DNA from: a virus
DNA length: 64,000 bases
Virus record (IMG/VR): IMGVR_UViG_3300043436_001160
Coordinates: 5,422-69,421 of that record
Direction: 5' to 3' (one strand)
Shown piece by piece: positions 50,701 to 56,700 of this stretch (the first letter of the stretch is position 1; each line of letters begins with the position of its first letter). The notes below the pieces were generated by a model that did no database searches, had not been told where the DNA came from, and worked only from the letters and a program-made list of their open reading frames with translations. A program made the position numbers and the translations under genes.

Positions 50701-53700
50701 GATGAATCAGATCCAACGACTGGTAATTTTAAAATAGAAGGTACATTTAATGAGTCTATTTTATACTCTCAACGAGTATCTGATCCTGAAAGATATGAAA
50801 ACGCTGTACTTAAGTCTTTCCTTGAAACAATTAATAACCCTAAAATTAAATACCGATTTAGAAAAGCACTTGAAACTAGAGTTAATGCAAGAAAACGTCT
50901 TGAAGATGAAACCGATGCTGAGTATTGGAACTCCGTTATTAAAGATTACTTAAGACCATTAATTCCAGGTTTCTTTACTTTAGCTGATTTTGGTAATAGT
51001 AATGTAGACTGGAAACCAGCAGATGAAGTTGGAATTGCTATTGCTCAGGTTATGATGGATCAAAAGCCAGGAATGACTGTTTCTGATGTTTTAATCCATA
51101 ACGGCCACAGTATTGAAGAGATATTCCAAATTGACGAGCAAGCACAATTTAAGTCTCAAGGTTCTCTTGGAAGACGAAAAGAACTAGCAGTCTTAGATCC
51201 TCTTGATGTTAACATGGCACAACCACATGCCTTATCTAAGGAAGAAGCAGCATACGATGGATTTAGATTAATCCAACGTGTAAACCATTTATTAGATATG
51301 AATATTGATCTAACAATGGAATCAGATATCGAAGCATGGTTAAAAAAACCAATTAAGCAAGAAGAAGGTGATGCTATTGCTTCAATCGTTAATGAACAAA
51401 TCTTAAGCATTGTACCAGATGTTGCAGCTCGTGGGGTCTTTACCAGTATACCATCCTTAGCTGAAAAGAAACGAATAACAGAAGAACATTTATATAATAT
51501 TCCAAAATTACTAATGTCAATTAACCACGATTGTTTCTACATTGGTATTGGACAACCACAAAGATTTTTAAATGAAGATCTTCCTGTATTCTTCTTTAAC
51601 GATGCTATTAACCCAGGTGGACCAACTGGAGCTGCTTTAATGGGTGGCGCTATGGATCAACTTGCATGGATGATTAACTTTGGTATGGTTACAGATCAAG
51701 AGTTTAATACTATTCTTGGTTCTGTCGAGCGAGGTATTGAACTACTTCGTCGTGAGGGTCCTAACGCAATAGCTATTGGAAATAAAACCGATTATGCATT
51801 CCAAGGTAAACACAATATCCTAGCAATGATGTTAGCTATGCAAGATGGAAATTTAAATCTTGTAAATGATATCTTAGCTAAATTTGGTGCTACTGATGGT
51901 ATGGGTAATGTTGCAACTTTAGAATCAGAAAGAATTATTGTTAATAAAAAGGATCTTGGAGATCCTAGATTTAAGGTTTATGATTTATTATTTGGATACA
52001 AAGAAAGACAAGCTGATGGTACTGAAAAAACTATTGATGGTATTTTCCCAGACATGTTAGATAATCCAGATAAATATAAACTTACAGTAGAAGTACACAA
52101 TTCACTTAAATCAATTGGACCTAAACTTAATAATCTTGCAGCAGATAGAACCAAACTTAAAGAGTTTTTTAAAGGCGCAATTACCCCTAGAATGTACCAA
52201 GCAGGTTTACCTGGTATTACTAAGGGTTTATCTGATAAAAACGCAGCAAATGATTTAGGATTTACCGAAGAAGAAATTGACTCTTTAGCTACTGTTTTAC
52301 TACGAGCTAACATGATTGAAAATATGTCTATTGTTGATGCAGCTTTAGGATTTTCATCAACAGACATTAAAGAACTAAAGACAATTCTATTAAACTATAA
52401 GCAAAAATTAAGTGCAGATAAGTTAAGAGCTTACGTTGGATCTAGTGCAACTAAAGCAGCTAAAGATAAAGCTGCAAGACTAAATTCTCTTAAGGGTTGG
52501 TATAGTAAATCTTTAGATCAAGTTTCCAATAGTCTTGCTAGATTTAAAGGTATTTCACCTATTGATGTAAGAAGAAAAACTGAAGTAGAAACAGAAAAAG
52601 AAAAAATTAAAAAAGATTGGGAAACTCGTTTAACAGAAGCTTCTGAAATCTGGAATACCCGTGCAGTTGAAGATATGTCTACAGATGAGTATCATACTCT
52701 TATGTATGATCTAAATGTTGTTCTTGCTGGAGGTAAAGAAGCACTAGAAAACCAACTAATGTTATATGCTTTAAGACGTAGAGCAGCAACTCCATATGTA
52801 ATTGAAGAAGATGCTATTGATTTACAACAATTAGTATCTACGCCTCATATTAGTAAAGAGGATTATCAACGATGGTTAAATAAAGAAATATTCTTTAGAT
52901 ATGGCGTAGAAGCCGCCAGCGGACGTAACCACATGGTTGGATGGTATGGTATTGGACCAGAGGGTTCAAAGTATGCTCAACCAAGAGTTGTGGCTCCGAA
53001 AGATTCAACCGATGTTGAAAGAGATCTCTTTAAAAAAGAAATGGGAAGTGATTATAATCCATTTGGTTTATGGGATATTAAAGAAATTACATCCAAAACT
53101 ACTAGGGATATGGATACTTTATTTTTACGTTCAGTTATGATTGATCTAGCAAGATTCTATAAACCACCAGTTTTTACTGGTTATCCAATGATGGCAGAAT
53201 CTAGAGAAATGTATTTTAAAGCAGTTGAAGAAAGATCTGCTCGGGAAATTGAAGCCCAAGAAAAAGCTCAATATCTTGATTCATTTGCAGATGAACATGA
53301 GTTTACTATTAATGGAGAAACAATTACCAATAAAGAGCGTAAAGTTCGTAATCGTAAACTATCGGGAACTGTAGGTCAACGAGTTCGTATGCGTACTAAG
53401 TTAAGTGGTACAGGAAACGAATCTCTTGTTCTTGATGCTAAGATTGATGGTATTGGTGCATTACGACCAAACTACGCAGATATTGACTTTACACAACGTG
53501 GTATTTATGCATTAGCACAGGCTCAGCATAGGGCTAGAATTAAAAACAATGAATCACTTACTTTAGCTAAAACCTTAGATAAGCCAGATACTTTTGGTCC
53601 TAATGACTTTGTTGATAAATCTTTACGAGGATTCGTAAGTCCATGGGATAAAAACACAATGCCCTATATTCCTCAGTCAAGTGAGGATATCGGAGCTCTT

Positions 53701-56700
53701 GTTGCTTTGGGTTCTAAAAATGCTATTGAAGTAAAGGCTGTTCAGTTACAAAATACACTAGAGGCTTTTGCTAAAGAAAACAATTTAGAAGATCTAGTTG
53801 CTAGGGGAGATTGGACACGCTTATTTGTTATTAAACAAATTAAAGAAAAAGCTTTATATCCTACTTTATCAACACTTAGAAAGATTCAAAAACCATCACC
53901 AACTAGTACATCCTTAGATAGAATGCTTCCAATTAAAGAAGCTCGGGTTAAGTTCCACGATGGTTTAATTAAAGTAGCTGGAATTAATAGCATTGCTCTT
54001 AGCGGAAACCATAAATTCTCGGTAACTGATCTTATGGCTTCTTTGGATGAAAGAGCTTTATCAATAGAGGACATAAACGAAATTAATTCACTATACGGAG
54101 AAGAGCCTGGTTGGATTCAAGTGTTGACTTGGTTAGCAACTAAAGGCAAAGTAAGTCGTTTAATGCCTTTGAAGTTTGGTTTAACTATTGATGCTGGTGT
54201 TATTGCTAGAGGCAAAGAAGGACGCCAAGGCATTCGTGGTACTTCACTTATTCCTATTACGTCCTTTGGCTTTGAGATTATGCAAGTCTACCATTTTATC
54301 CAAAGTACTGAAATAGCTAGAAAAATAGCAACACGATTAGTTCCTGGTTCTGCTTTGGATACTCCTGCGGTTAAGAAAGATTCAAATGGATTTATTATCC
54401 TTGAAAGTCTTAATCCATTATTAGATACTAAACTGTATAATCAAATCCTTCAAGAAACAATGCAAAATAAAGCTGAGTTGACAAAACAACTCATGACTAC
54501 TTTTACTTTTGTATTAGATCGCAGTCAAACTTTACGCATAATGACTAACGCTGATCAAGTGTATAGAGAAGATGAAACAGAAGAATCTTTAACTAGACAG
54601 GGTATTACTAATGCAAATGTATTTACCCAAAAACTAGTAGATAATCCTGGTACTCTGTGGCTATTTACTCCAGATATGGTTACAGACATGCTAAACGAAA
54701 TTAGCAATAATAAATTCTTTTCTGAATTTACATTGGGATATCAAACTAAAAAAGAATTATATCAGATTAAATCAGATGCTGATATCTTAGCGCAAGAAGA
54801 ACAAGCTCAAATGTTTGAAAAGATGCGTGAAGATGAAGAAGATATGAACGATGCTCTTCTCATGTTGCATAAACTTAATCCAGGTAAAGCTAAACCAATC
54901 ATTATATCTGATTACCGTAAAACAGATCTAAACGGAAATCCTCGTTTAGTTATTGACTTCGGTGCTTACATGGTTAATGAAGCATATTATCGTGGAAGTC
55001 AAGCAAAAGACGTTGCCGAAGGTTCTTCTAATAATGTTAAAGTAAACTTACTAGTATCTAGAGATGGAACTACAGAACTTAAAAAAACTTCAGTAACTAT
55101 TCCAACTGCTGATATGCCGTATGTTTCTACGTTAATAAATGTCATTAACAAAGCAAGAGCTTCGGGATTCCATGAACAAGCTGATAAGATTTCTGATTTT
55201 GTTGAGAAATATGGTAGAATTGAAAAAGAAACTGATCCTAAAGAACTAATAGTTAAAAAGAAATTCAAAGGTGTAAGAACTAGTACTGTAGTTCTAAAAC
55301 TTGCTGCAATGTCTTTTGAGTTGGCTGGTAATACTGAAGCACAGGAAGCGTTATTTACTTACTTTGGCTTTAGTAGTCCCGAAGAAGTAAAGACTCTTAA
55401 GACAAAACTAGCCCCAGTTCTTGATGCTATGTTATACACTACCTCAGTTGAACGACATGAAGTAGATTCTGCTTACTATATTACAAAGGCAAAACTTGAA
55501 CGTCAAGACTTTGTTGATAAGAATCTTTCTAGAGATTCTGTATTTGTTTCTGAAATTAGTCGCCTTACAAACAAACCAGATTCTAGAGAACTACGAATTA
55601 GTATTATGAAAGCAACTGATGAGGTAATTCAACCAATGGTTGAACCTGAAATTGCTTCTGATTTATTTAAAATTACAGCAAGCCCAGCGGTCTTTGCTGA
55701 TCCAGATAGCTTTATGGATTCCTTTGCAGATCCTGGGGATAGAGCCATTGCTGAAAAGATTGTTGCTAATCTAGATCAACTAGTTGCAGATGGTATTATT
55801 TCAGCTCGTGTTCGTGATATGAAACTAATGTTAATTGGAAAACTCAGTCAAAATAATATGGAGTTTATCCGTAACTTAGGATTTGAAGCTTATAGTTCAG
55901 ACTCTGAACCGCTTATGTCAGCAAGTAAACGAAATGGTAAATATATTCTTGGATTGAATATTAAACTTGCCGAACTAACAAATGAAACCGAAATGGTCTT
56001 TAGATTTGCTGAAGAATTATTACACATTGCTCGCGTTAAGTTTGTCAGTCAAAACTCACAAGAATGGAACAATGTTGTTGGTTTGTTTAGTGCAAATAGA
56101 TCTAGGGGTATGGTTCGTGAGATGTTAGTTGCAATGAGTGGTAGAATGCCAACTGAAGAATTAGAGTCAAAGGTAAATTATGCAATGTCTAATCCTGATG
56201 AATTTTTTGCTCATGTTGGGGCATTTGTATTACTAAAAGATTTATTTGGCAACAGTGAAACTTTAGACACCTTAGCCGCTAGATTCCAAGGTATTGCAGC
56301 AGCAACTTCACTTTGGAAACGAGCTTTCTTTATGATTAAGGGAATGGCTAAGAATATCTTAACTACATTTGCTAAACTTACTAATGATCCTAATTATTCA
56401 GATCTTTACCAAGAAGCTGAAAAAGCAGTAATGGGTGTTATTGAGAATGGATTTGTAGCTAGAGGAGATGTTGGAAATCCAGATGCAGTTTATAATACAT
56501 ATAAGAATTCTGCAACTACTTTAAACAATAAAGTTATATCTCCTGTAGAGCAATCACAAATTACAATCCTTACTTCAGAAATACAAGCCTTAGAAACACT
56601 AAGAAACGCTGAAGTAGCCAAAGATGTAGCCACTAGAGATGCAGTGCTTATCAAGAAACTAAATAACGATATTGAAACAAAAACAAAAGATCGCAGAGCA

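What the first reader, a model, noticed from the sequence alone, without database searches (positions are those of the whole stretch)
51500..54000. RNAP-like motifs in the giant virion protein, in non-standard or duplicated order
Seen: motif A-like KTDYAFQGKH (about aa 1359), DLGDPRFKV, and motif B-like KEFFKGAITPRMYQAG (K1486/Y1494, Kx7Y spacing). A T/DxxGR-like segment (YGVEAASGRNHMVGWYGIGPEGSK, about aa 1735) lies downstream of B and is followed by a second A-like DIDFTQRGIY (about aa 1924). Candidate motif C HD dipeptides lie upstream of A (SINHDCF, about aa 1272) and far downstream (FHDGL, about aa 2081). Inference: either two tandem RNAP-derived domains, or a permuted palm (C-A-B), in a virion-delivered polymerase. 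Some of these short matches may be chance.
Basis: inference. Interest (0 to 1): 0.82.

Follow-up and report, generated by a model that had tools for sequence, protein, structure and literature searches.

The report
Rearranged RNA-polymerase module in giant phage protein
A 4182-residue protein of a marine T7-like phage carries, in its middle, what looks like a T7/N4-type single-subunit RNA polymerase whose conserved catalytic motifs stand in an unusual order, so this phage may inject its own polymerase as phage N4 does.

Summary
The finding lies in one 4182-aa ORF (window 47716-60264, +) at the end of the structural genes of a 69.4-kb T7-like podophage that also has a normal 811-aa T7-type RNAP.

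As bare strings they occur at chance frequency. In 40-42 homologues (17-62% identity) only some of their residues never change: H1271-D1272, D1359/G1364, D1416, K1486 and R1737. Y1494 is kept in 37 of 40. The "second motif A" (D1924) and the downstream "HD" (D2082) are not conserved, so the tandem-domain idea fails.

Profile comparison puts the conserved blocks on motif C, motif A, the QDxY block, the pre-thumb helix and T/DxxGR of the phage's own RNAP. Each match is weak alone.

Two AlphaFold models searched against 48,161 PDB representatives give T7 RNAP as best hit (Z 8.6-8.7, fingers with motif B). N4 mini-vRNAP, N4 RNAPII and mitochondrial RNAPs also rank near the top. No DNA polymerase appears in the lists shown.

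Motif order is C-A-B-T/DxxGR, which is not a cyclic permutation.

Pfam, PDB sequence searches and Foldseek found nothing significant. The palm around motif A is poorly modelled. Packaging, ejection and activity are inferred.

The parts
47716..60264 (+). Giant ORF, 4182 aa (P0001). It is the last and largest of four large ORFs after the terminase gene and is the presumed ejection (gp16-position) protein.
   Evidence: Homologues are nearly all 3700-4240 aa. Public sources name it only 'hypothetical protein'.
51388..53550 (+). Polymerase-like module, aa 1225-1945, as folded in the second model.
   Evidence: AF2 model m7ee4d1cba217: pLDDT 74.8, pTM 0.66. Best of 48,161 PDB representatives is T7 RNAP, Z 8.7.
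51502..51546 (+). Motif C-like element, aa 1263-1277: hydrophobic strand, H1271-D1272, strand.
   Evidence: H and D are 40 of 40. hhalign top hit is motif C (740-746, SFVHDSY) of the window's RNAP, E 0.006, reached by 0 of 30 column shuffles. It is modelled as a beta-hairpin with HD at the turn.
51781..51825 (+). Motif A-like element, aa 1356-1370 (NKTDYAFQGKHNILA): D1359, G1364 (D+5), H1366.
   Evidence: D and G are 40 of 40 and H is 36 of 40. The top hhalign hit is motif A of the window's RNAP (514-527), but it is weak: E 0.17, reached by 4 of 30 shuffles. It lies in a stretch with pLDDT under 50 in both models.
51955..51990 (+). D1416 block (DPRF here, DxY in distant homologues), aa 1414-1425. 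It matches the QDxY block after motif A of T7-type RNAPs and is the start of the fingers match.
   Evidence: D1416 is 40 of 40. hhalign places it on RNAP 537-565 and N4 609-611. VIA-align pairs model residue 191 onward with T7 RNAP 568 onward.
52159..52206 (+). Motif B-like O-helix, aa 1482-1497: [KR]1482 x3 K1486 x7 Y1494 xx G1497.
   Evidence: K1486 is 40 of 40, Y1494 37 of 40, G1497 38 of 40. hhalign with N4 mini-vRNAP aligns it to RGIAKNPLTITIYGSGARGI. It lies inside the T7 RNAP fingers match, Z 8.6-8.9. hhalign against the window's RNAP did not find motif B.
52750..52821 (+). Helix like the one before the thumb in T7-type RNAPs, aa 1679-1702 (LxALNxxxxTPxxL).
   Evidence: hhalign places it on the window's RNAP 290-313, E 0.003, reached by 0 of 30 shuffles.
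52900..52971 (+). T/DxxGR-like block, aa 1729-1752 (ASGR here; TTTGRMQY...NPQGSSLSK in distant homologues). It lies downstream of motif B.
   Evidence: R1737 is 40 of 40. hhalign places it on RNAP 401-420 and N4 420-438, reached by 0 of 30 shuffles. VIA matches to N4 mini-vRNAP 302-446, N4 RNAPII 117-266 and yeast mtRNAP 670-856 run to model residue 750-754, which is aa 1789-1793.
53479..53508 (+). It is not a catalytic motif.
   Evidence: D1924 is 29 of 40 and 12 of 22.
53953..53967 (+). It is not conserved.
   Evidence: D2082 is 22 of 40 and 7 of 22.
49543..50205 (+). DEDDy-type 3'-5' exonuclease-like domain of the same protein, aa 610-830 (FDIET, HNGNNFDF, YSENDAD).
   Evidence: Pfam RNase_H_2, E 9e-5. 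phrog_403 DNA polymerase exonuclease subunit, E 0.003. D616, E618, N699, D704, Y815 and D819 are invariant in A1.
534..2969 (+). The phage's canonical T7-type RNAP (811 aa) with motifs in the normal order: T/DxxGR 398, A 514, B 581, C 743.
   Evidence: phrog_414, E 8e-161. Relatives carry PF00940.
39775..47701 (+). Three ORFs (277, 1347 and 1016 aa) between the terminase and the giant gene. They are presumed internal/ejection proteins (gp14/15/16-like) by position only.
   Evidence: They have no PHROG family and only sub-threshold Pfam hits.

Best explanation
The giant ORF encodes the largest internal (ejection) protein of a T7-like podophage. Embedded in it, at about aa 1225-1945, is a module derived from the T7/N4/mitochondrial class of single-subunit RNA polymerases.

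The module keeps the residues that do the chemistry in that class. These are the motif A aspartate (D1359) with a glycine five residues on (G1364, the place where family-A DNA polymerases carry the steric-gate glutamate), the O-helix lysine and tyrosine of motif B (K1486, Y1494), the arginine of T/DxxGR (R1737), and an HD pair at the tip of a beta-hairpin (H1271-D1272) that would supply the second catalytic carboxylate.

The blocks stand in the order C - A - fingers/B - pre-thumb helix - T/DxxGR. The canonical order is pre-thumb - T/DxxGR - A - B - C. This is a rearrangement that is not a simple circular permutation.

Most likely mechanism (inferred): the protein is packaged in the head and expelled with the other ejection proteins. 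Inside the cell it then transcribes the first DNA to enter. That would start the early genes, and possibly pull the genome in, without host RNA polymerase, much as N4 vRNAP does. The phage's ordinary 811-aa RNAP would then take over.

Shown here: homology-level resemblance, residue invariance and fold similarity of the fingers and the T block. Inferred: packaging, ejection, catalytic activity, RNA rather than DNA as the product, and the template.
For: (1) Conservation. H1271, D1272, D1359, G1364, D1416, K1486 and R1737 are unchanged in 40 of 40 sequences and again in 22 of 22 locus-derived fragments. Y1494 is 37 of 40 (A3 of 42 sequences; A9 of 37; A10 of 22). Identity to the window falls to 17-20%. 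Only 8.2% of positions are invariant even among 14 closer sequences.

(2) No other acidic residue of the module is invariant. D1541 is 36 of 40, E1828 39 of 40, D1924 29 of 40 and D2082 22 of 40. By elimination, D1272 is the only candidate for the second catalytic carboxylate.

(3) Profile-profile hits. When short blocks of the family alignment are compared with the phage's own RNAP family, the best hit of 5 of the 8 blocks tested lands on the matching element: C on 740-746 (E 0.006), A on 514-527 (E 0.17), D1416 on 537-565, pre-thumb on 290-313 (E 0.003) and T on 401-420 (E 0.08). The motif positions were found independently. Column shuffles reach the observed score in 0 of 30 runs for four of these blocks and in 4 of 30 for A. 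Against N4 mini-vRNAP, the T block falls on 420-438 and the D1416-to-B stretch on 610-685.

(4) Structure. Model 1 (aa 1040-2239) against all 48,161 PDB representatives gives rank 1 T7 RNAP 3e2e_A (Z 8.6, rmsd 2.5, 94 aligned, aa 1416-1544 to T7 569-689), rank 2 N4 mini-vRNAP (Z 6.8), rank 4 N4 RNAPII (Z 5.9) and rank 5 yeast mitochondrial RNAP (Z 5.8). Only one chain reaches Z 8. Model 2 (aa 1225-1945, pLDDT 74.8) gives rank 1 T7 RNAP (Z 8.7) and rank 2 human mitochondrial RNAP (Z 7.7, but rmsd 14.6). In the second look at Foldseek's 324 best chains, the top four rows are T7 RNAP at Z 8.3-8.9 and the next row is Z 5.1. No family-A DNA polymerase is in any list of 50.

(5) Model 2 draws aa 1267-1276 as a beta-hairpin with HD at the turn.

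(6) Of 24,736 Pfam families, the best hit among 22 members is N4_RNAP_helical (1 of 22, E 0.008).

(7) Context. The gene ends a run of large ORFs after the terminase in a phage whose portal, capsid, tail-tube and terminase genes are T7-like. In N4-like phages the vRNAP is the third ejection protein, 'analogous to gp16 in T7' (PMC13434306, passages seen).
Against: No standard search reaches significance.

- Pfam shows only the exonuclease-like domain in the whole protein. It shows no RNA_pol or N4 RNAP family at E up to 1.
- PDB sequence searches with the protein and with the 8-sequence profile found nothing relevant.
- NCBIfam found nothing.
- Foldseek found no match at E <= 0.001; T7 RNAP appears only at E 1.4-8.
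- hhalign probabilities stay at 11% or below.
- The motif B block did not find motif B of the window's RNAP.
- Full-length comparison with N4 gp50 found nothing.

The structural match covers about 95 residues of the fingers. Z 8.6-8.9 is just above the level the tool says helical models can reach by common arrangement.

Motif A lies in a stretch with pLDDT under 50 in both models. The HD hairpin was also under 50 in model 1. No coordinates were available, so I could not check whether D1272 and D1359 sit next to each other.

The ESM Atlas gave no usable hit.

A re-ordering test, in which blocks were put into canonical order, did not raise the hhalign score.

The phage already has a complete RNAP, so a second one is not obviously needed.

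A DEDDy exonuclease domain upstream is what one expects of a DNA polymerase, not an RNAP.
Confidence: 0.6

Rival explanations
1. The module descends from a polymerase but no longer polymerises. It serves as a structural or nucleic-acid-binding part of the ejection channel, for instance clamping or threading the incoming DNA, as T7 gp16 is thought to do.
For: The models are mostly helical, with long helices at aa 1585-1646. The motif order is scrambled, which could go with loss of function. The phage has its own complete RNAP. No palm match was obtained.
Against: Exactly the residues that matter for catalysis and substrate binding are the invariant ones, at 40 of 40 down to 17-20% identity. The surrounding sequence has diverged. 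A mere scaffold would not be expected to keep HD, Dx4G, K...Y and the T/DxxGR arginine.
Confidence: 0.13
2. It is a DNA polymerase of the family-A lineage (exonuclease plus polymerase), carried into the cell to repair, fill in or prime the incoming genome rather than to transcribe it.
For: A DEDDy exonuclease-like domain with all motif residues invariant lies about 400 aa upstream in the same protein. T/DxxGR and motifs A, B and C are shared by family-A DNA polymerases and T7-type RNAPs (recalled knowledge).
Against: The residue five places after the motif A aspartate is an invariant glycine, as in T7 and N4 RNAPs (N4 DGVTNG seen; window RNAP DGANNG). It is not the glutamate steric gate of Pol I-type enzymes (recalled). 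Every polymerase in the structural hit lists is an RNAP, and no family-A DNA polymerase appears among the 50 rows shown from 48,161 chains. The phage has a separate family-A DNA polymerase with its own exonuclease (ORF 9944-11770).
Confidence: 0.12
3. The resemblance is chance. This is a helical ejection/tunnel protein with conserved residues of some unrelated function.
For: Every single statistic is below the usual thresholds. Short motifs are easy to find in 4182 residues.
Against: Independent lines converge. The invariant residues coincide with the motif residues. Five of the 8 blocks tested hit the matching element of an 811-aa RNAP. T7-type RNAPs take ranks 1, 2, 4 and 5 of 48,161 chains in one model and ranks 1 and 2 in another. 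The fingers match begins exactly at D1416, paired with T7 568-569 as the sequence comparison predicted.
Confidence: 0.06
4. There are two tandem RNAP-derived domains, the second made of ASGR, D1924 and D2082.
For: In the window's own sequence the strings ASGR - DIDF - FHDG follow one another with roughly RNAP-like spacing.
Against: D1924 is 29 of 40 and D2082 is 22 of 40, and both are lost in whole distant subgroups. No second motif B exists: [RK]x3Kx7Y occurs once.
Confidence: 0.03

Closest known systems
Phage N4 virion RNA polymerase (gp50, Schitoviridae) and its central mini-vRNAP domain
   Same: Both are giant proteins (3500 aa in N4, 4182 aa here). Both are the largest gene of the run of ejection-protein genes and have a T7-class polymerase module in the middle third. 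T/DxxGR ('TRVGRMQM...NPQS' in N4, 'TTTGRMQY...NPQGS' in distant members of this family) and motif B ('RGIAKNPLTITIYGSGARGI' in N4, 'KEFFKGAITPRMYQAGLPGI' here) are alike. The structural match to 3q0a_A is Z 6.8 and Z 5.3.
   Different: There is no detectable similarity outside the motifs. None of the four Pfam N4 RNAP families is matched by the window's protein. The motif order is C-A-B-T instead of T-A-B-C. An exonuclease-like domain is present. The phage is T7-like, not N4-like. The N4 paper calls vRNAP 'unique to this family' (PMC13434306, passage).
T7 RNA polymerase and relatives (Pfam PF00940), including the window's own 811-aa RNAP and mitochondrial RNAPs
   Same: The fingers fold is shared (T7 568-690, Z 8.6-8.9, rmsd 2.5-2.7 over 93-96 residues). 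So are motif A of the Dx4G..H type, the QDxY block, [RK]x3Kx7Y, HD[S] on a hairpin, the pre-thumb helix and T/DxxGR followed by NPQG.
   Different: PF00940 is not matched. The block order is rearranged. There is about 25 residues more between motif A and the DxY block and about 190 between T/DxxGR and the following conserved block. The module is embedded in a 4182-aa protein.
Permuted-palm RNA-dependent RNA polymerases of birnaviruses and permutotetraviruses
   Same: Motif C is encoded upstream of motif A (C-A-B) while, in those enzymes, the active site keeps its geometry (abstracts of PMC8310298 and PMC4666646, seen only in the listing).
   Different: That is a different polymerase superfamily (RdRP), a different host range and a different template. 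Here the T/DxxGR block has also moved, so the rearrangement is larger. This is an analogy, not membership.
T7 gp16 (largest internal core/ejection protein)
   Same: It holds the same position as the last and largest of the internal-protein genes of a T7-like virion module (T7 gene order recalled; PMC13434306 passages).
   Different: No sequence similarity was found (no PHROG hit beyond the exonuclease). The protein here is three times longer and has polymerase-like and exonuclease-like domains.

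Membership tests
T7-type single-subunit RNA polymerase (PF00940 RNA_pol) | Match to the family's profile HMM | tested here: not met
   Pfam scan of the whole protein at E up to 1 shows only RNase_H_2. A scan of 22 family fragments at E up to 10 shows no PF00940.
T7-type single-subunit RNA polymerase (PF00940 RNA_pol) | Motif A aspartate followed by Gly at +5 (no steric gate) | tested here: met
   D1359 and G1364 are 40 of 40. hhalign aligns them with D514...G of the window's RNAP. 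The meaning of the +5 position is recalled.
T7-type single-subunit RNA polymerase (PF00940 RNA_pol) | Motif B Rx3Kx7YG on the O-helix of the fingers | tested here: met
   [KR]1482 (24 K, 16 R), K1486 40 of 40, Y1494 37 of 40. The Gly is displaced to +3 (G1497, 38 of 40). The motif lies within the fingers match to T7 RNAP 568-690, Z 8.6-8.9. hhalign against the window's RNAP missed it.
T7-type single-subunit RNA polymerase (PF00940 RNA_pol) | Motif C: His-Asp at the turn of a beta-hairpin | tested here: inconclusive
   H1271-D1272 are 40 of 40. The hhalign top hit is motif C, E 0.006. A hairpin is modelled at pLDDT about 70-76. It lies upstream of motif A, and its place next to D1359 could not be checked because no coordinates were available.
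T7-type single-subunit RNA polymerase (PF00940 RNA_pol) | T/DxxGR motif | tested here: met
   R1737 is 40 of 40 and G1736 is 34 of 40. hhalign places it on RNAP 401-420 and N4 420-438.
T7-type single-subunit RNA polymerase (PF00940 RNA_pol) | Canonical order T/DxxGR - A - B - C | tested here: not met
   The order is C (1271) - A (1359) - B (1486) - T/DxxGR (1737) in every aligned member.
T7-type single-subunit RNA polymerase (PF00940 RNA_pol) | DNA-dependent RNA synthesis | not testable with these tools
   Needs biochemistry.
N4-like virion RNA polymerase (Schitoviridae gp50) | Match to the Pfam N4 RNAP domain families (PF21769, PF21894, PF21624, PF21867) | tested here: inconclusive
   The window's protein has no hit. 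One of 22 family fragments hits PF21894 N4_RNAP_helical at E 0.008, the best family of that scan. All listed N4 relatives carry the four families.
N4-like virion RNA polymerase (Schitoviridae gp50) | Full-length collinear similarity (NTD - RNAP - CTD) | tested here: not met
   hhalign of the 14-sequence full-length alignment against 8 N4-type gp50 proteins gives a best E of 0.18, with scattered hits.
N4-like virion RNA polymerase (Schitoviridae gp50) | Packaged in the virion and ejected into the cell | not testable with these tools
   Only gene position speaks for it (PMC13434306 passages).
Family-A DNA polymerase (Pol I type) | Steric-gate Glu five residues after the motif A Asp; match to DNA_pol_A profiles; structural match | tested here: inconclusive
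   The +5 residue is Gly in 40 of 40. There is no DNA_pol_A hit. No family-A DNA polymerase is among the rows shown, which does not exclude one further down. A DEDDy exonuclease-like domain is present upstream.

The most novel reading that the evidence does not exclude
An active single-subunit RNA polymerase whose palm and thumb-side elements are encoded in the non-cyclic order C-A-B-T/DxxGR. It would be built into the gp16-position ejection protein of a whole clade of about 65-72-kb marine and freshwater T7-like phages. These phages would then bring their own first polymerase into the cell, as N4 does, and hand over to a canonical T7-type RNAP. If so, this would be the first rearranged palm in the Pol A / T7 RNAP superfamily and a second, independent origin of the 'injected giant RNAP' strategy. 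It may be coupled to an exonuclease and a zincin-like domain in the same polypeptide.
Probability: 0.4. Interest if true: 0.9.

Novelty: new variant of a known kind. Interest (0 to 1): 0.78.

Why it matters
Injected RNA polymerases are known from N4-like phages (T7-class fold) and crAss-like phages (two-barrel fold, recalled). The recent N4 structural paper describes the giant vRNAP as unique to Schitoviridae (PMC13434306, passage).

A giant ejection protein with a T7-class polymerase module in T7-like phages would show that this infection strategy is wider than thought. It would also show that the strategy can coexist with a normal phage RNAP.

The fixed, conserved rearrangement of the catalytic blocks is a natural experiment on how much the right-hand polymerase fold tolerates re-wiring. 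So far that has been documented for RNA-virus RdRPs (abstracts listed).

The family is small: 49 representatives among 1.84 billion. It is unannotated in public sources. The claim can be tested directly by expressing one fragment.

Tried and rejected
**Searches that found nothing**
- blastn and tblastn of the region against 50,697 GenBank phage records: no match.
- phmmer and an 8-sequence profile against PDB sequences: nothing relevant; one stray hit at E 0.13.
- ESM Atlas search by features with aa 1230-1800: no usable hit.
- NCBIfam on the module: nothing.
- Foldseek against PDB with both models: nothing at E <= 0.001.

**Comparisons that were inconclusive**
- hhalign of the whole 901-column family block against the RNAP and N4 profiles gave only short hits with probability at or below 11%.
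- I put the three blocks (C, A-B, preT-T) into all six orders and re-ran hhalign. The top hit did not change with order, because the local alignment never chained the blocks.
- Full-length giant against N4 gp50: nothing.

**Candidates considered and dropped**
- GSLGRR (aa 1149-1154) as an upstream T/DxxGR: lost in distant homologues.
- D1296 (NDAINPGGPTG), which hhalign paired with N4 motif A: D in only 20 of 40.
- D1541 as a motif C between B and T: 36 of 40.

**Not pursued or not available**
- The 638-aa ORF downstream looked RNAP-like by eye, but hhalign, Pfam, PHROGs, NCBIfam and PDB gave nothing.
- A scan for N4-style hairpin promoters produced only a list of perfect hairpins, with no recurring motif that I could defend.
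- Literature searches listed no paper describing such a protein in T7-like phages or a permuted T7-type RNAP. That is four keyword searches of an open-access library, not proof of absence.
- Supplements were not opened.

Full report
**What the window is.** The window is bases 5422-69421 of a 69,421-bp single-contig genome. All large ORFs are on the + strand. PHROG profiles identify these genes:
- a T7-type RNA polymerase of 811 aa (534-2969, E 8e-161);
- a primase/helicase;
- a family-A DNA polymerase with its own exonuclease;
- a ribonucleotide reductase;
- a T7-type portal, a scaffold and a major capsid protein;
- tail-tube proteins A and B and a tail fibre;
- a large terminase.

The terminase is about 36% identical to those of Autographiviridae. 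After the terminase come ORFs of 277, 1347, 1016 and 4182 aa with no PHROG family. The finding lies in the last of these (47716-60264, P0001). The genome ends carry a roughly 155-bp repeat, as T7-like genomes do.

**The observation.** In a 4182-aa protein they are not rare. HD occurs twice (3.2 expected), Kx7Y 8 times (8.6 expected) and GR 14 times.

**Homologues.**
- The word-indexed search found 14 relatives of 4021-4233 aa at 28-99% identity.
- A profile of aa 1230-2130 (A2), scored against 1.84 billion representatives, found only 49 proteins. Nearly all are 3700-4240 aa with the matching part at about residues 1100-2100. This is a small, closed family of giants, named only 'hypothetical protein' by its sources.
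- Scans of IMG/VR and one scan of JGI metagenomes gave 29 loci. Of these, 21 non-redundant ones supplied fragments by reference.

**Which residues are kept.**
- In a 40-sequence alignment reaching 17-20% identity, H1271, D1272, D1359, G1364, D1416, K1486 and R1737 are each 40 of 40.
- Y1494 is 37 of 40, G1497 38 of 40, H1366 36 of 40 and G1736 34 of 40. Position 1482 is K in 24 and R in 16.
- The 22 locus fragments give the same picture, as do A3 with 42 rows and A9 with 37 rows.
D1924 is 29 of 40 and D2082 is 22 of 40, and both are replaced in whole distant subgroups.
- Other candidates I raised also fail: the GSLGRR string, D1296 at 20 of 40 and D1541 at 36 of 40.
- So the module has exactly three invariant acidic residues: D1272, D1359 and D1416.

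**What the conserved blocks look like.** In the distant homologues the blocks read as follows:
- hydrophobic strand, then VHDS;
- YFDDKFSGIHHLLA;
- TDYYxK;
- RDFFKGxVIPIIYSGG;
- LxALNxxxxTPxKL;
- GTTTGRMQYPGNYLTNPQGSSLSKGL.

The phage's own RNAP has SFVHDSYGT (743), MDGANNGGQHWSAIM (514), RNVTKRPTMCDAYG (581) and LDFRGRAYSVCELLSPQGIDFDRGL (398). N4 mini-vRNAP has TRVGRMQMLGKYNPQSAKL (420), EADGVTNGPINAMM (D559) and RGIAKNPLTITIYGSGARGI (666). The residue numbers of T7 RNAP used below (D537, G542, D569, K631, Y639, H811-D812) are recalled, not taken from a call.

**Profile tests.**
- I cut the family alignment into short blocks and compared each with a 30-odd-sequence alignment of the window's RNAP family. 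The top hit fell on motif C for the HD block (E 0.006), motif A for the D1359 block (E 0.17), the QDLY block for D1416, residues 290-313 for the helix at 1679-1702 (E 0.003) and T/DxxGR for the ASGR block (E 0.08).
- The motif B block and two control blocks (D1541, D1924) did not give a meaningful hit.
- Column-shuffled versions reached the observed score in 0 of 30 runs for four blocks and in 4 of 30 for motif A.
- Against N4 mini-vRNAP and 12 close relatives, the T block hit 420-438 and the stretch D1416-to-B hit 610-685. The latter aligns motif B residue for residue.
- All these are weak (probability at or below 11%). Their weight comes from landing on the right places.

**Structure.**
- Model 1 (aa 1040-2239, 25-row alignment) is poor: pLDDT 63, with motifs A and C below 50.
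- Model 2 (aa 1225-1945, 37 rows) is better: pLDDT 74.8, pTM 0.66. It draws aa 1267-1270 and 1273-1276 as a hairpin with H1271-D1272 at the turn. It also draws short strands around the ASGR motif. Residues 1353-1363, which include D1359, remain below 50.
- Foldseek found nothing significant. T7 RNAP chains and one N4 mini-vRNAP chain sit among its weak rows.
- VIA-align, which aligned every one of 48,161 PDB representatives, gave for model 1:
  - rank 1, T7 RNAP 3e2e_A: Z 8.6, rmsd 2.5, 94 residues, aa 1416-1544 to T7 569-689;
  - rank 2, N4 mini-vRNAP 3q0a_A: Z 6.8, 93 residues, aa 1229-1789 to 302-446;
  - rank 4, N4 RNAPII: Z 5.9;
  - rank 5, yeast mitochondrial RNAP: Z 5.8.
  Only one chain reached Z 8, and 27 reached Z 5.
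- For model 2 it gave rank 1 T7 RNAP (Z 8.7, 96 residues), rank 2 human mitochondrial RNAP (Z 7.7, but rmsd 14.6) and rank 36 N4 mini-vRNAP (Z 5.3). The rest are generic helical hits on the long helices at model 350-450.
- The second look at Foldseek's 324 best chains put four T7 RNAP entries on top (Z 8.3-8.9). The next row is at 5.1.
- The tool warns that Z near 8 can arise from common helical arrangements.
- What speaks for homology is this. The matched stretch begins at D1416, paired with T7 568-569, and contains motif B, as the sequence comparison had predicted. Only RNA polymerases of this one class recur at the top, and no DNA polymerase is listed.

**Order of the blocks.**
- Every member has HD (1271), then Dx4G (1359), then DxY (1416), then motif B (1486), then the pre-thumb-like helix (1679), then T/DxxGR (1737).
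- In T7, N4 and the window's own RNAP the order is pre-thumb helix, T/DxxGR, A, DxY, B, C.
- The A-to-B stretch is collinear with T7 RNAP in sequence and in fold.
- The T block has moved behind it. Three RNAP structures whose matched ranges end just after their T/DxxGR align up to aa 1789-1793.
- The HD element has moved in front.
- C-A-B-T is not a cyclic permutation of T-A-B-C, so a single circular permutation cannot explain it.
The argument that D1272 is the second catalytic carboxylate is by elimination and by motif likeness.

**RNA or DNA.** The invariant Gly five residues after D1359 matches T7-type and N4 RNAPs. It differs from the Glu of Pol I-type enzymes (recalled). The structural neighbours are all RNAPs. 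Against this, the same protein has a DEDDy exonuclease-like domain at aa 610-830, with its catalytic residues invariant. That pairing is typical of DNA polymerases. I rate RNA synthesis as the likelier activity but not as settled.

**Mechanism proposed.** By position the giant gene is the counterpart of T7 gene 16. In N4-like phages the vRNAP is the third ejection protein and is called analogous to gp16 (PMC13434306, passages read; abstract). I therefore propose an ejection protein that carries a rearranged T7-class RNAP into the cell. It would transcribe the leading end of the genome before the phage's own 811-aa RNAP is made. Packaging, ejection, activity and template are all inferred.

**Against my reading.**
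- No curated profile recognises the module.
- Every E-value is weak.
- The structural match covers about 95 of 720 residues.
- The palm is unresolved.
- The block re-ordering test was uninformative.
- The phage does not obviously need a second RNAP.

**Verdict.** The most likely identity is a rearranged T7/N4-class polymerase module inside a giant ejection protein (confidence about 0.6). This would be a new variant of a known kind.

Noticed in passing
window 49543-50205 (aa 610-830 of the giant protein): A DEDDy-type 3'-5' exonuclease-like domain. FDIET, HNGNNFDF and YSENDAD have D616, E618, N699, D704, Y815 and D819 invariant in 14 sequences. Pfam RNase_H_2 scores E 9e-5 and phrog_403 E 0.003. 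The motifs are also visible in the distant subgroup consensus. An exonuclease in an ejection protein is unexplained.
   Followed up: partly
window 56005-56040 (aa 2764-2775) and about 56191-56220: FAEELLHIARVK reads FAHExxHIAR in distant homologues (consensus of A4, A5 and A6). That is a zincin-like HExxH motif whose first His is Glu in the window's clade. A conserved NPDEFxAxxG follows about 60 residues later. It may be a (former) metallopeptidase domain that could process the giant protein.
   Followed up: no
window 61199-63115 (+), 638 aa: An ORF in the GC-rich right end. By eye it carries ssRNAP-like strings in the canonical order (SLDSRGGRQY, LDGHANGVLSQ, RDWMKAAAQPATYTS, ASRHDAITV). There is no hit in PHROGs, Pfam, NCBIfam, PDB sequences or hhalign against the RNAP family. 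It is conserved downstream of the giant gene in L001/L003 (86.5% identity), and its start is conserved in L032 (46% over 52 aa).
   Followed up: partly
window 60300-64000: G+C rises from about 0.35 to 0.45-0.56 just after the giant gene and stays high to the genome end. The first 1 kb of the genome is also high at 0.46-0.49. This segment at the genome ends differs in composition from the rest.
   Followed up: no
window 63845-64000 (genome 69266-69421) and genome 119-273: The last 127 bases of the genome recur exactly at 147-273. Two perfect hairpins (CTCAGTTG...CAACTGAG and CAGTGTATAC...GTATACACTG) occur in both copies. This is probably a direct terminal repeat of about 155 bp, as in T7-like phages.
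   Followed up: partly
L027, L028, L030 (IMG/VR loci): These loci are open throughout (1208-1419 aa within 3.6-4.3 kb). They match only scattered parts (residues about 516-2827) of the giant protein P0024 at E 1e-14 to 1e-23. They did not match the polymerase-module profile. They may be shorter relatives with the exonuclease and zincin-like parts only.
   Followed up: no
window 18326-20512 (+), 728 aa: A large ORF between the portal and scaffold genes with a Pfam SO2946-like C-terminal domain (E 2.9e-10) and no PHROG family. Together with the 602-aa and 1061-aa ORFs next to it, this is an unusual insertion in a T7-like head module.
   Followed up: no
window 8350-10068 and 9944-11770: The listed primase/helicase ORF and the DNA polymerase ORF (GTG start) overlap by 125 bases. 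The polymerase's PHROG match begins at residue 19, so the true start is probably further downstream.
   Followed up: no
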